Source of the DNA: Antedon mediterranea
Taxonomy: Eukaryota; Animalia; Echinodermata
Direction of reading: 5' to 3'
Assembly (NCBI RefSeq): GCF_964355755.1
Contig: NC_092676.1
Location: 29,875,499 to 29,939,498 of the forward strand
DNA length: 64,000 nt
This document shows positions 15,308 through 19,552 of this stretch, in pieces. Under the pieces are notes generated by a model. That model was not told where the DNA came from and did no database searches. It was given only the letters and a program-made list of their open reading frames with translations. The translations under genes and the position numbers were made by a program. Positions within the stretch are counted from its first letter, which is position 1. Each line of letters starts with the position of its first letter.

Positions 15308-18300
15308 ATGAAGAGTGAAATGTCAGCAGTAGCTGAGCCGTTATTTGCGTGTACTAAATGCAATAGCAGACACCCGTTCGACGAATTGTCTCAAGGCCAA
15401 CAACTTTGTAAGGTTAGAATAGAAAACGTCAAAATTGTCGCCGTTGTGGTCACTTCCTATAGCCCCGAGGAGTAAAATTGTTGGCCTACCAAAATCAAGA
15501 TGTAGGCCTAAACAAATAATACTTGATTACTTTGTATTTTATTCAAATAATTGCTAATGTGTTGTGAATCTTTTAATAATGGTATTTTAATTTTGTAATT
15601 AATGATTTTAAAGAAAAAACAAATAAAAATAGGCAAACCTAATAATTTAATAATATTGTTTTGTTTTGAAAAAAGTAAAAAAAATGGAAATTTATGGTTT
15701 TAACAAAACAAAGCCGCAGTTGTTTTTTATAAGATTCATATTGAAACAAATTAATGAAGACCTAGTGTACTACCCAAGCCCCATCTGATTCAAATCTGTA
15801 TTAAATCTGTACAAATATGTATTATTAAAACTGATTAAAGTATTAAAAAAGCTACTTTGTTTCCACCACAGGAATGCCGAGGTAACTATCCAGTGGTGAA
15901 GTGTACATATTGCAGAGCAGAGTTCCAGCAAGAGAAGTATGATGTGACATTTTAATGGTCTTTTAGGCTCAGTCATAAATGTGTTTTTGAATAAAATACA
16001 ATGTATATACTTTTTGTTGACATGCAGTTAAATTTTTTATTTTAGTAAAAGCAATACAAATACAATCTGTCGGAAATGCTCAGCTAATGTCAAGACGTAT
16101 GGAACGGTAAGGACTTGTTTGTCTTTTCGTATGGAACGGTAAGGACTTGTTTGTCTGTTTTTAAATATTAGAACCACTTACCAAATATAGTAGAATGTAC
16201 AAGTATTTTAAATAAAACCTATTTATATATTTTGTTACAGCCAAAGCCATGCGAGTATTGCAATGTAATTGCCGCATTTATTGGTTCAAAATGCCAACGA
16301 TGTTCTAACTCTGAAAAGAAGTATGGAGCGCCTCGTGTGTGTGAACAATGTAAACAAAAGTGTGCTTTTGACAGGAGAGATGAACGCAAAAAGGTAAATA
16401 ATTAAATAAGAAATAAATCAAAACTAAACACAAAACCACCTGTGAATACTGCCACCATACTGTTCCGTGATAATCAACATGATGATTGTGGAATGAAGAC
16501 GAAGAATTAAATAAATTCTAATAAACAGGACTGGCTCGTTGTGTATGGCTTATATTCACCAAGCAAAATGTGTTTGTTTTAGGTTGATGGCAAAATTCTA
16601 TGCTGGTTGTGCACCTTGTCCTACAAAAGAGTTTTACAGAAAGCAAAGAAAAGGAAGTTTGATCTGATGTCAAGTCACTCATCCAGAAGCTCATCTCGGG
16701 ACAGTAGAGAGCATAGTGACACCAAAGAAGCTAAGAAATCCTCAAGTAAAGACAAGTAGGTGCAATGCAATTGGTCGCGGCAGCCTCCAACCAAAATTAT
16801 TTTTTTATTTTATAGTGAAAGTATTACAACCATAACAGTTTGTGTTGAAAATCAAAGGTTTTTTGTTAAAAGACATTTCATTACATTCCATTTGACATTT
16901 TCCGCCAACAGATCATCGTCCAATCATGAAAGAAAGAAAAGCAAAAACGATCATTCCAGTAGTAGCTCTACACCACCTGTGTAAGTAGTCATTTAAGTAC
17001 TCACTTGCTATTTAAGTACTCACTTTCTATTTAAGTACTGACTTTCTATTAAGAACTCACTTAATTGCTATTGTTTTATACTCATTCTTCACACATTCTT
17101 TGAACCACAAAACATTCCATTGATGTCTTTAAGTACTGCTGTACAATACATTAATAACACTGTACTTTTTGAGTATATAAATTTTTTTATAAATTGAACC
17201 ATTTTTTAATAAATTTAATTTTACAAATAGAGTTGAAATTGTTCTCTCTATATAGACATATGGATTTGCAATACCCTGTCCCTCTTTATATGGAAACACA
17301 GACGAGTGGTAATAGTAATAAAAATATGAAACCTATGTTATTCCTTATGACCATTTACACACAAGGCAAGGCGGACAGATGGTTTACCGTGAGGATAGAT
17401 ACAGAATCTATGTGGAACAAGCTGCATGGTTTTTTCCGCTTATCATTACCACTCGTCTGTGTAAATTTGCCTTTATTAACGATTTCTGTTTCAAACATAC
17501 AGGTAAATCATTTCTTATTTCTGTAGATCTGCTCTTCATAAGATCGTCTTCAATAACTCATCTGAGCTGATGATGAATGATCCTAGAAATTCTGATCATG
17601 TTGTTGCCATGACGCAGCTCAGAGAACAGGTTGCATCACTTAAGAAACAAGTGATGGAGAGAGATAGATTTGCCATTGAAAAAGAAAAACAGGTAGGACA
17701 GCGAGTTGGCAAACTACTCATTAAAAATGAATGAATGAATTATGCAAAATAAAAATTGTTATTTTCACATCCAGGATGTGAATTTCCTTTTAAAATTAAA
17801 TAAAAATCATGTTTTTTTTTCATTGACTATAATTAATTAATTATTTGAAAATACAATAAAACAAAAAGCTATAATTTATGATGCCAGGGACATGACACTT
17901 TTATTTGGCCTTGATTCTCTTTTGTTTTGTACTTTGTTTTAGTATCCAGGATGTTAACTATTTTTTTATTTTACTGTTGTAGATTGCTGAGTTAAAGGCG
18001 ACATGTTTGAGTGCAGAGAAAGATTTAAGAATAAGAATGTTACAACTCCAGAAACAACACTCGGGAACTATAGAAGAGTTACAGGTAAGATACTAGGGTG
18101 TAATTGAGCTTCAACCAAGCTTCAGTCTTCCCATATCTCAATAAGAGTTACAGGTAAGATACTAGGGTGTAATTGAGCTTCAACCAAGGTTCAGTCTTCC
18201 CATATCTCAATGAAGAGTTACAGGTAAGATACTAGGGTGTAATTGAGCTTCAACCAAGCTTCAGTCTTCCCATATCTCAATGAAGAGTTACAGGTAAGAT

Positions 18301-19552
18301 ACTAGGGTGTAATTGAGTTTCAACCAAGCTTCAGTCTTCCCATATCTCAAATGAAGAGTTACAGGTAAGATACTAGGGTGTAATTGAGCTTCAACCAAGC
18401 TTCAGTCTTCCCATATCTCAATGAAGAGTTACAGGTAAGATACTAGGGTGTAATTGAGTTTCAACCAAGCTTCAGTCTTCCCATATCTCAATAAAGAGTT
18501 ACAGGTAAGATACTAGGGTGTAATTGAGTTTCAACCAAGCTTCAGTCTTCCCATATCTCAAATGAAGAGTTACAGGTAAGATACTAGGATGTAATTGAGC
18601 TTCAACCAAGCTTCAGTCTTCCCATATCTCAAATGAAGAGTTACAGGTAAGATACTAGGGTGTAATTGAGCTTCAACCAAGCTTCAGTCTTCCCATATCT
18701 CAATAAAGAGTTACAGGTAAGATACTAGAGTGTAATTGAGCTTCAACCAAGCTTCAGTCTTCCCCTATCTCAATGAAGAGTTACAGGTAAGATACTAGGG
18801 TGTAATCGAGTTTCAACCAAGCTTCAGTCTTCCCATATATCAATGAAGAGTTACAGGTAAGATACTAGGGTGTAATTGAGCTTCAACCAAGCTTCAGTCT
18901 TCCCATATCTCAATGAAGAGTTACAGGTAAGATACTAGGGTGTAATTGAGTTTCAACCAAGCTTCAGTCTTCCCATATCTCAATAAAGAGTTACAGGTAA
19001 GATACTAGAGTGTAATTGAGCTTCAACCAAGCTTCAGTCTTCCCCTATCTCAATGAAGAGTTACAGGTAAGATACTAGGGTGTAATCGAGTTTCAACCAA
19101 GCTTCAGTCTTCCCATATCTCAATGAAGAGTTACAGGTAAGATACTAGGGTGTAATTGAGCTTCAACCAAGCTTCAGTCTTCCCATATCTCAATGAAGAG
19201 TTACAGGTAAGATACTAGGGTGTAATTGAGCTTCAACCAAGCTTCAGTCTTCCCATATCTCAATGAAGAGTTACAGGTAAGATACTAGGGTGTAATTGAG
19301 TTTCAACCAAGCTTCAGTCTTCCCATATCTCAAATAAATGTTCACAATTTTTAGACTAATTTTCACCAAACAATGGGTGTTTTTATGTTACCTTTTTTAC
19401 GCTTCTATAAAAAAGTCTGGAGTTAGAAAGTGTTATTTGTAACATGATTTCCCGGCTGCTTTTGATAATGATGCTGCTTATGATAATCTGTATGTCAAAT
19501 TTTGTTTTTTTTTCAGTCAAGAAACCGAATGTTGAACAAACAGTTACAGCAG
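15308..19552 (+). CDS. FAM76B: FAM76 (FAM76A/B) homologue. Nine coding exons are resolved; the 3' terminal exon or exons after 19552 are unresolved, with a possible micro-exon near 19675..19690.
   Basis: Exons: 15308..15412 (ATG 15308), 15872..15936, 16046..16106, 16241..16393, 16583..16755, 16912..16980, 17527..17692, 17983..18084, 19517..19552. Phases are consistent. The translation [148 protein letters not shown] is near-identical in its Cys pattern to human FAM76B as recalled from memory. The C-terminal coiled-coil [46 protein letters not shown] also matches. Confidence 0.8.
18085..19330. repeat. About 60-bp minisatellite x about 20 immediately downstream of FAM76 exon 8. Every unit begins with a copy of the exon-8 3' end plus the splice donor (AAGAGTTACAG|GTAAGATACTAGGGTGTAATTGAG(C/T)TTCAACCAAGCTTCAGTCTTCCCATATCTCAAT).
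   Basis: Direct reading. The first unit is the genuine exon end 18074..18084 plus donor gtaaga. Units vary (caat-g/aa/aaat spacer, c/t, an ag-to-ga change). Confidence 0.95.

What the first reader, a model, noticed from the sequence alone, without database searches (positions are those of the whole stretch)
18085..19330. Minisatellite of about 20 units, each carrying a consensus 5' splice site, seeded from the FAM76 exon-8/intron junction
The array starts at the true donor of FAM76 exon 8 (…GAAGAGTTACAG|GTAAGATACT, 18084/18085). Every 60-bp unit re-copies AAGAGTTACAG|GTAAGATAC followed by the first 45 nt of the intron. The intron therefore begins with about 20 tandem, near-perfect cryptic donors in the same phase-ambiguous context. 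Use of any downstream donor would insert multiples of about 60 nt (20 aa: KSYR..) plus possible stops into the FAM76 coiled-coil. This is either a hotspot for aberrant or alternative splicing, a U1-snRNP sponge within a pre-mRNA, or a very recent replication-slippage expansion. Unit variants (C/T at two sites, spacer caat-g/aa/aaat) show a higher-order pattern.
Basis: seen in the sequence. Interest (0 to 1): 0.7.

Follow-up and report, generated by a model that had tools for sequence, protein, structure and literature searches.

The report
Intron minisatellite repeating a splice donor
A 70-bp stretch spanning the exon 8/intron 8 junction of the feather-star FAM76A-like gene has been copied head-to-tail 18 times, so the intron opens with 18 identical strong splice donors; this is a real but already known kind of repeat (as in human F7, IFI6, CBS, LMNB2 and PDGFA) with no sign of a function.

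Summary
It spans 18073-19335, with a 70-bp period (69-71) rather than 60, and 18 units rather than about 20. Each unit holds the last 11-12 nt of exon 8 plus the first 58-59 nt of intron 8.

The gene is FAM76A-like of the crinoid Antedon mediterranea. The RefSeq protein is 100% identical and joins exon 8 to exon 9 from the first donor.

An in-frame TAG lies at intron +10..+12. Every one of the 17 extra donors would therefore give the same truncated product (...EELQVRY*, 301 aa). None would give a 20-aa insertion. The lost tail contains the invariant NRxLxKQ motif.

The orthologous intron in Anneissia, Patiria and Acanthaster has a single donor, so the array is young and lineage-specific. The unit is found nowhere else in the window.

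Tandem repeats cover 5-10% of the crinoid loci, so a junction-spanning array is expected by chance. The same gene also has a 32-bp duplication of its exon-3 donor.

The class is documented: minisatellites whose first monomer spans an exon-intron boundary (F7 IVS7 and others), where normally only the most upstream donor is used.

Verdict: a near-neutral VNTR and a new member of a known kind. Donor usage could not be tested.

The parts
17983..18084 (+). Exon 8 of the FAM76A-like gene (102 nt, phase 0 at both ends), ending ...GAAGAGTTACAG
   Evidence: tblastn and the exon model reproduce RefSeq XP_071954897.1 (P0001) at 100% identity. The exon is orthologous to Anneissia L001 14771-14872.
18082..18090 (+). 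Authentic 5' splice site CAG|GTAAGA (G+1 = 18085). It matches CAG|GTAAGT at 8 of 9 positions, the best donor in the gene.
   Evidence: The P0001 junction reads ...EELQ|SRNRML.
18094..18096 (+). In-frame TAG at intron +10..+12. It is the stop codon for any transcript that uses a downstream donor or retains the intron.
   Evidence: all 17 alternatives give the 301-aa product ...EELQVRY*.
18073..19335 (+). Minisatellite of 18 head-to-tail units of 69-71 bp. Each unit holds the last 11-12 nt of exon 8 plus the first 58-59 nt of intron 8.
   Evidence: TRF gives period 70, 18.0 copies, 96% matches and score 2355.
18151..19285 (+). 17 reiterated pseudo-donors CAG|GTAAGA, with G+1 at 18154, 18224, 18294, 18365, 18435, 18505, 18576, 18647, 18717, 18787, 18857, 18927, 18997, 19067, 19137, 19207 and 19277. 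Positions -11..+12 are identical in all 18 copies.
18705..19264 (+). Higher-order duplication. Units 10-13 (18705-18984) are nearly identical to units 14-17 (18985-19264): u10 = u14, u11 differs from u15 by 1, u12 = u16, u13 differs from u17 by 1.
   Evidence: Pairwise difference matrix.
19336..19516 (+). Unique 3' part of intron 8, with the acceptor tttttttcag|. From the last donor (19277) to the acceptor is 240 nt, the inferred length of the intron before the expansion.
19517..19579 (+). Last coding exon ([20 protein letters not shown] plus stop TAA at 19577-19579). It encodes the invariant NRxLxKQ motif.
   Evidence: In the 11-species alignment N301, R302, L304, K306 and Q307 are invariant.
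16096..16156 (+). A second, smaller event of the same kind in the same gene: a 32-bp duplication (1.9 copies, 100% identical) made of the last 11 nt of exon 3 plus the first 21 nt of intron 3. The donors ACG|GTAAGG lie at 16106|7 and 16138|9.
   Evidence: Use of the second donor gives a frameshift and a 96-aa product. The sequence is single copy in Anneissia.

Best explanation
This is a young minisatellite specific to the Antedon lineage. It arose when a ~70-bp segment straddling the exon 8/intron 8 boundary of the single-copy FAM76A-like gene was tandemly duplicated. The segment was then amplified by replication slippage or unequal exchange, including at least one 4-unit block duplication.

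Because the unit carries the donor, intron 8 now starts with 18 identical near-consensus 5' splice sites.

I infer that the array has no function of its own and is tolerated because the spliceosome uses the most upstream donor. That donor is the only one in the native exon context, 102 nt from the exon-8 acceptor, and so is favoured by exon definition or 5'->3' selection. The other 17 donors then lie inside a 1432-nt intron. Any leakage to them gives a transcript with a premature stop, which is a likely NMD target.

Shown: the anatomy, the local origin, the lineage specificity, and the coding consequence of each donor.
Inferred: the mutational mechanism, first-donor usage, and near-neutrality.
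For: - Array anatomy is established.
- The origin is local. The first unit is contiguous with a conserved coding exon, and the unit has no other copy in the 64-kb window or in the Anneissia locus.
- Orthologous introns at the same position and phase in Anneissia japonica, Patiria miniata and Acanthaster planci have a single donor and no related repeat.
- The array is young and still turning over: 6 identical units, 10 variable columns, and a 280-bp higher-order duplicate.
- It is not surprising by chance. Tandem repeats cover 6.7% of the window (4.7% without this array) and 9.6% of the Anneissia locus. That predicts about 0.4-0.8 donors per 8-intron gene inside a repeat if placement is blind to junctions. 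A second junction duplication sits at the exon-3 donor of the same gene.
- The RefSeq model uses the first donor. No truncated isoform is on record.
- The exon-9 tail carries residues invariant from echinoderms to vertebrates.
- There is a direct precedent. In human F7 IVS7, IFI6, CBS, LMNB2 and PDGFA the first monomer of a minisatellite spans the exon-intron boundary, and only the first donor (or the first few) is used (PMC1557585).
- There is no ORF on either strand, no Rfam family, and no excess RNA structure.
Against: - No transcript evidence was reachable. First-donor usage rests on a computed RefSeq model and on analogy.
- The Antedon donors are much stronger (CAG|GTAAGA, 8 of 9) than the F7 ones (TGG|gtgggt, CV 74). 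In F7 minigenes a perfect downstream site was used at 70-90%.
- In HeLa extract, two consensus donors 174 nt apart splice almost wholly from the intron-proximal one (PMC3413131). By that rule donor 18 would win. Donor 18 also recreates the ancestral 240-nt intron.
- The reference is one individual, so the allele could be rare and mildly deleterious.
Confidence: 0.7

Rival explanations
1. Poison-donor rheostat. A substantial share of transcripts is spliced from downstream donors, above all the intron-proximal one. This yields PTC-containing mRNA or a 301-aa protein lacking the NRxLxKQ tail. The array, and its copy number, would then lower or tune FAM76 output, either as a deleterious load or as regulated unproductive splicing.
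For: - All 17 extra donors are identical to the authentic one over -11..+12 and are the strongest donors in the gene.
- Each gives a stop at least 57 nt upstream of the last junction, which is the NMD-competent geometry in vertebrates.
- In vitro, two consensus donors resolve to the intron-proximal site.
- IFI6 and CBS do use the first two pseudo-sites.
Against: - The array is not conserved in any other echinoderm examined, unlike typical regulated poison events.
- It went through repeated expansion, including a block duplication, without being purged.
- The RefSeq model gives only the full-length product.
- Four or five human arrays of this architecture are silent or nearly so.
Confidence: 0.15
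2. Copy number is an assembly artefact. The duplication is real, but the count of 18 is inflated or deflated by mis-assembly of a repeat.
For: Tandem arrays are the classic place for assembly errors. No reads were available to check this.
Against: - The array is only 1.26 kb, far shorter than modern long reads.
- The units carry distinguishing variants arranged in an ordered, non-random pattern.
- The contig is 30.6 Mb.
Confidence: 0.05
3. Recursive (ratchet) splicing. Each junction ...TTACAG|GTAAGA acts as a juxtaposed 3'/5' splice site, so the array is removed stepwise and any choice of donor still resolves to the correct mRNA.
For: The core motif CAG|GTAAG is that of recursive splice sites. 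Removing any whole number of units from GT to the unit-final AG regenerates the exon 8 donor exactly, as read directly from the sequence.
Against: - As acceptors the junctions are poor. The pyrimidine fraction over -20..-5 is 0.44-0.50, against 0.50-0.81 for the eight real acceptors.
- Another AG lies only 4 nt upstream, against 16-84 AG-free nt at the real acceptors.
- The intron is 1.4 kb, not the tens of kb where recursive splicing is known (general knowledge).
- The array is not conserved.
Confidence: 0.04
4. Cis-acting U1 snRNP platform or sponge. The 18 U1 sites would recruit U1 to suppress the intronic poly(A) signals, retain the transcript, or titrate U1.
For: There are eighteen 8-bp U1-complementary sites. 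AATAAA hexamers lie at 18490, 18702, 18982 and 19333 inside or at the end of the array.
Against: - Three of the AATAAA hexamers were created by mutations within the array itself, so the array cannot have arisen to silence them.
- One intron cannot titrate U1 (general knowledge).
- The array is not conserved.
Confidence: 0.03

Closest known systems
Human F7 intron 7 VNTR (37-bp monomer, 5-9 copies; Borensztajn et al. 2006, PMC1557585)
   Same: The first monomer spans the exon-intron boundary. The authentic donor is followed by identical pseudo-donors in tandem, all facing one acceptor. The array is non-coding and intronic.
   Different: - The F7 unit is 37 bp with only 4 nt of exon. Here it is 70 bp with 11-12 nt of exon.
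- F7 has 5-9 copies; this array has 18.
- The F7 donors are weak (TGG|gtgggt, CV 74). Here they are near-consensus (CAG|GTAAGA).
- F7 usage and polymorphism are shown experimentally. Here neither is.
Human PDGFA intron 4 (81 bp x 16-18) and LMNB2 (100 bp x 10-15) minisatellites, as listed in PMC1557585
   Same: They are closest in unit size and copy number. The donor is reiterated in the intron, and only the authentic donor is reported to be used.
   Different: They are in vertebrate genes, and their donor strength and exon share were not examined here. They are unrelated in sequence and arose independently.
Human IFI6 (6-16) intron 2 and CBS intron 13 minisatellites, as listed in PMC1557585
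   Same: The donor is reiterated 15-25 times at the start of an intron.
   Different: In those genes the first two pseudo-sites are constitutively used and give alternative products. Here any such use would hit a stop at the fourth codon.
Recursive splice sites (ratchet points) of long Drosophila and vertebrate introns
   Same: Both have a juxtaposed AG|GTAAG core that regenerates a donor after splicing.
   Different: This array lacks the pyrimidine tract and the AG-free zone. The intron is short, the sites are tandem and young, and they are not conserved.
[quoted passage not shown]
   Same: A tandem duplication carries a second copy of a donor.
   Different: It is a single 403-bp duplication containing much exonic sequence, and it causes intron retention and disease. 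Here the exon share is short, there are many copies, and the gene model is intact.

Membership tests
Minisatellite whose first monomer spans an exon-intron boundary (F7 IVS7 type) | Head-to-tail array of a 10-100-bp unit in many copies | tested here: met
   Period 70, 18.0 copies, 96% matches.
Minisatellite whose first monomer spans an exon-intron boundary (F7 IVS7 type) | The first monomer contains the end of a genuine coding exon and its authentic donor | tested here: met
   Exon 8 ends at 18084. The model is 100% identical to XP_071954897.1, and the junction position is conserved in three other echinoderms.
Minisatellite whose first monomer spans an exon-intron boundary (F7 IVS7 type) | [quoted passage not shown] | tested here: met
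   Positions -11..+12 are invariant in 18 of 18 units.
Minisatellite whose first monomer spans an exon-intron boundary (F7 IVS7 type) | Only the most upstream donor (or the first few) is used in mRNA | tested here: inconclusive
   The RefSeq model uses donor 1, and no truncated isoform is in the protein collection. No transcript reads were reachable, and the C-terminal protein search returned nothing.
Minisatellite whose first monomer spans an exon-intron boundary (F7 IVS7 type) | Copy-number polymorphism among individuals (VNTR) | not testable with these tools
   Only one assembly of the species was available.
Recursive splice site (ratchet point) | Juxtaposed 3'ss/5'ss core YAG|GTAAG | tested here: met
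   ACAG|GTAAGA is present at all 17 internal junctions.
Recursive splice site (ratchet point) | Functional acceptor context: a pyrimidine tract and an AG-free zone upstream | tested here: not met
   Pyrimidine fraction is 0.44-0.50 against 0.50-0.81 for real acceptors. The previous AG is 4 nt upstream, against 16-84 nt.
Recursive splice site (ratchet point) | Evolutionary conservation | tested here: not met
   Absent from the Anneissia, Patiria and Acanthaster orthologous introns.
Regulated unproductive splicing (NMD-coupled alternative 5' splice site) | The alternative site introduces a stop more than 50 nt upstream of the last exon junction | tested here: met
   The TAG at 18094-18096 lies 57-1180 nt upstream of the junction for donors 2-18.
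Regulated unproductive splicing (NMD-coupled alternative 5' splice site) | The alternative event is conserved across species | tested here: not met
   There is a single donor in three other echinoderms.
Regulated unproductive splicing (NMD-coupled alternative 5' splice site) | Demonstrated use of the alternative site and NMD sensitivity | not testable with these tools
   This needs RNA-seq or RT-PCR with NMD inhibition.
FAM76 protein family (host gene) | Pfam PF16046 domain and full-length homology | tested here: met
   P0001 carries PF16046. There are 795 homologues at E<=1e-20, aligned.

The most novel reading that the evidence does not exclude
With 18 equally strong, near-consensus donors, the crinoid spliceosome may not simply take the first. 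A large share of transcripts could splice from the intron-proximal donor, which recreates the ancestral 240-nt intron. In that case array length would act as a heritable dial on FAM76 dosage through NMD or C-terminal truncation. Alternatively, Antedon may have effectively lost the invariant NRxLxKQ tail. Either way the locus would be a natural test that separates 'first-donor scanning' from 'intron-proximal wins' outside vertebrates.
Probability: 0.1. Interest if true: 0.55.

Novelty: new member of a known kind. Interest (0 to 1): 0.25.

Why it matters
The finding changes little on its own. It is one more minisatellite that happens to include a splice donor, in a genome whose introns are full of minisatellites.

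Its modest value is as a natural experiment. It offers 18 identical donors with 8 of 9 consensus matches, a clean readout (a stop at codon 4 for any wrong choice), and a second 2-copy case in the same gene, all in a non-vertebrate deuterostome.

Two published rules make opposite predictions here. In F7 minigenes the most upstream donor is selected. In vitro, with consensus sites, the intron-proximal donor is selected. A few RNA-seq junction counts would show which rule holds.

Tried and rejected
- Exact look-ups of P0001 and P0002 in the contig index found nothing. The longer Anneissia isoform P0121 worked.
- I searched for Antedon transcript-derived protein fragments with the C-terminal 109 aa. 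The search returned no scoring hit, not even the protein itself, so it is uninformative.
- An exact look-up of the predicted truncated 301-aa isoform showed it is not in the collection.
- I tested whether RNA structure hides the pseudo-donors.
  - The folds are no more stable than shuffled sequences (z +1.5 and +0.5).
  - A weak UCUUCC:GG(U)AAGA pairing makes donors 2-18 slightly less open than donor 1 (mean unpaired 0.36-0.42 against 0.51).
  - This is too small an effect to build on, and the F7 authors likewise found no explanatory structure.
- I tested for selective constraint on the donors. The invariant 23-nt run is not significant given only about 9-10 variable columns (my estimate: about 0.3 for a run this long somewhere in the unit).
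- The unit is not a dispersed repeat or transposable element. It has no other copy in the window or in L001.
- The array is not coding on either strand. There are stops in all three + frames and only ORFs of 36 aa or less on the - strand.
- Rfam gave no match in the whole window.
- I checked for a third junction-spanning repeat. The 17-bp array next to a Cep57 exon (12628-12793, - strand) starts about 19 nt after that donor and does not include it.
- I looked for microhomology at the duplication boundaries. At most 2 nt are shared (read), so this is not informative.
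Full report
**What is in the sequence**

Tandem Repeats Finder reports one array at 18073-19333 with period 70, 18.0 copies, 96% matches and score 2355. It is by far the strongest of 24 arrays in the window.

The string AGAGTTACAG|GTAAGATACTAG occurs exactly 18 times, spaced 69-71 nt apart. The G of each GT lies at 18085, 18154, 18224, 18294, 18365, 18435, 18505, 18576, 18647, 18717, 18787, 18857, 18927, 18997, 19067, 19137, 19207 and 19277.

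The core observation is right.

Aligning the units gives the following:
- Only 10 of 71 columns vary.
- Six units are identical to the consensus.
- Positions -11..+12 around the donor are invariant in all 18 units.
- Units 10-13 and 14-17 are copies of each other, with pairwise differences of 0, 1, 0 and 1. A 280-bp block was therefore re-duplicated.

With so few mutational events, the invariant stretch is not significant evidence of constraint.

**The host gene**

A FAM76 probe, followed by an explicit exon model, gives nine coding exons on the + strand: 15308-15412, 15872-15936, 16046-16106, 16241-16393, 16583-16755, 16912-16980, 17527-17692, 17983-18084 and 19517-19579.

The 310 aa encoded through position 19552 are 100% identical to XP_071954897.1, 'protein FAM76A-like [Antedon mediterranea]', which is 318 aa and lies on a 30.6-Mb contig. 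That model joins ...EELQ (exon 8, first donor) to SRNRML... (exon 9). It then reads through the GT at 19553 to a stop at 19577-19579.

The window is collinear with the Anneissia japonica locus in the order Utp14, Cep57, FAM76, class-C GPCR.

**Consequence of the extra donors**

Intron 8 is phase 0 and begins GTA AGA TAC TAG. Using any of donors 2-18 adds 69 to 1192 nt but always gives the same 301-aa product...EELQVRY*. The stop lies 57-1180 nt upstream of the final junction.

The tail that would be lost contains N301, R302, L304, K306 and Q307. These residues are invariant in an alignment of echinoderm, hemichordate, amphioxus, fish and frog FAM76 proteins.

All three + frames of the unit contain stops. 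The longest ORF on the - strand is 36 aa. Rfam finds nothing in the window.

**Origin and age**

The unit has no other copy in the window or in the Anneissia locus. Its first 12 nt are part of a conserved coding exon. The repeat therefore grew out of the junction and was not inserted.

The orthologous intron sits at the same position and phase after Q in three other species:
- Anneissia japonica has CAA|GTAAGT, a single copy. Its 542-nt intron carries an unrelated 28/84-bp minisatellite.
- Patiria miniata has CAG|GTACAT, a single copy.
- Acanthaster planci has CAG|GTACCT, a single copy, in an intron of about 300 nt.

The array is therefore lineage-specific and young. From the last donor to the acceptor is 240 nt, the inferred length of the intron before the expansion.

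**Is it surprising?**

Tandem repeats cover 6.7% of the window (4.7% without this array) and 9.6% of the Anneissia locus. The same locus in two sea stars shows about 0.7% and 0%.

If repeats fell without regard to splice sites, about 0.4-0.8 of the eight donors of a gene like this would lie inside one.

The same gene has a second case. At 16096-16156 a 32-bp unit (the last 11 nt of exon 3 plus the first 21 nt of intron 3) is duplicated at 100% identity. The second donor would cause a frameshift and a 96-aa product. In Anneissia this sequence is single copy.

A 17-bp array beside a Cep57 donor starts about 19 nt into the intron and does not include that donor.

**How it most likely works**

The architecture is a documented class. 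Borensztajn et al. [quoted passage not shown] Their examples are:
- F7 IVS7: 37 bp x 5-9, only the most upstream site used.
- LMNB2: 100 bp x 10-15, only the authentic site used.
- PDGFA intron 4: 81 bp x 16-18, only the authentic site used.
- IFI6: 25 pseudo-sites, the first two also used.
- CBS IVS13: 15-20 repeats, two pseudo-sites also used.

[quoted passage not shown] Moving the first usable site further from the exon increases exon skipping, which implicates exon definition.

By analogy, I take donor 1 to be the working site. It is the only one with native exon context, lying 102 nt from the acceptor of exon 8. The array would then be near-neutral intron filler. The RefSeq model and the absence of any truncated isoform in the protein collection agree with this reading, but they are not transcript evidence.

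**Why this remains uncertain**

The Antedon donors match the consensus at 8 of 9 positions and are the best donors in the gene. The F7 donors have a CV of only 74.

In F7 minigenes, a perfect pseudo-site downstream of the weak authentic site took 70-90% of splicing.

[quoted passage not shown] A poison-donor effect therefore cannot be excluded. I give it 0.15.

**Other readings tested**

RNA structure. Exon 8 plus three units, and two consensus units, fold no better than shuffled sequences (z +1.5 and +0.5). A weak pairing of each pseudo-donor with a UCUUCC 24-29 nt upstream leaves donor 1 slightly more open (0.51 against 0.36-0.42 mean unpaired). The effect is small.

Recursive splicing. The core CAG|GTAAGA fits. 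As acceptors, however, the junctions have a pyrimidine fraction of 0.44-0.50, against 0.50-0.81 for the real acceptors. They also have another AG 4 nt upstream, against 16-84 AG-free nt at the real acceptors. This defining feature is not met.

U1 sponge or telescripting. There are AATAAA hexamers in the array at 18490, 18702, 18982 and 19333. The first three were created by a G>A variant within the repeat itself. Nothing else supports this reading.

Assembly artefact. This is unlikely for a 1.26-kb array with ordered unit variants, but it could not be tested here.

**Verdict**

The predicted coding consequence was wrong.

This is a new member of a known kind: an F7-type minisatellite spanning an exon-intron boundary, in a minisatellite-rich crinoid genome. 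It has no evidence of function.

Its interest lies only in being a clean natural test of 5' splice-site choice among many strong identical donors. That test needs RNA data that these tools could not reach.

Noticed in passing
window 16096-16156 (+): The exon-3 donor of the same FAM76A-like gene is also tandemly duplicated: a 32-bp unit, 1.9 copies, 100% identical. Like the large array, the duplicated unit starts 11-12 nt inside the exon. The second donor would cause a frameshift and a 96-aa product. The sequence is single copy in Anneissia.
   Followed up: partly
window 18490, 18702, 18982, 19333 (+): AATAAA poly(A)-signal hexamers lie inside the array and at its 3' edge. The three inside were created by a G>A change at position -12 of three units.
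   Followed up: no
window 33685-33821 (-), 35551-35627 and 37122-37236 (+), 36138-36659: Arrays of a 16-mer containing GGGGCGACTT lie in opposite orientations around a 74/147-bp array. Together they look like one composite repeat or the ends of a mobile element.
   Followed up: no
window 3726-3775 and 8242-8330; motif also at 7589, 12320, 31986, 42482: A 21-bp array (GTGATATGCCCAAATATGGTA) and its reverse complement lie 4.5 kb apart. The core GTGCCCAAATATGG is dispersed through the window, and a related inverted repeat lies near 20680-20780. This is probably a MITE-like family.
   Followed up: no
window 49397-52618 (-): An uninterrupted 1073-aa ORF joins GMC oxidoreductase N and C domains to a PNK3P polynucleotide 3'-phosphatase domain. 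It sits in a patch of higher GC (0.43 against about 0.33). This is an unusual domain combination for an intron-free ORF in an animal genome.
   Followed up: no
L001 (Anneissia japonica) 14439-14763 and 15379-15403: A 54-bp minisatellite (5.9 copies) ends 8 nt before the exon-8 acceptor, and a (TAT)8 run ends 11 nt before exon 9. Crinoid minisatellites run right up to splice sites of this gene in both species.
   Followed up: partly
window, L001, L002, L003 (FAM76 loci): Tandem-repeat density at the same locus is 6.7% in Antedon and 9.6% in Anneissia. It is about 0.7% in the sea star Patiria and 0% in Acanthaster. This contrast between crinoids and sea stars rests on one locus only.
   Followed up: partly
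window 46186-46247 (-): A 24-bp unit in 2.6 copies lies inside the 602-aa forkhead-domain ORF (45923-47731). It is an in-frame coding repeat.
   Followed up: no
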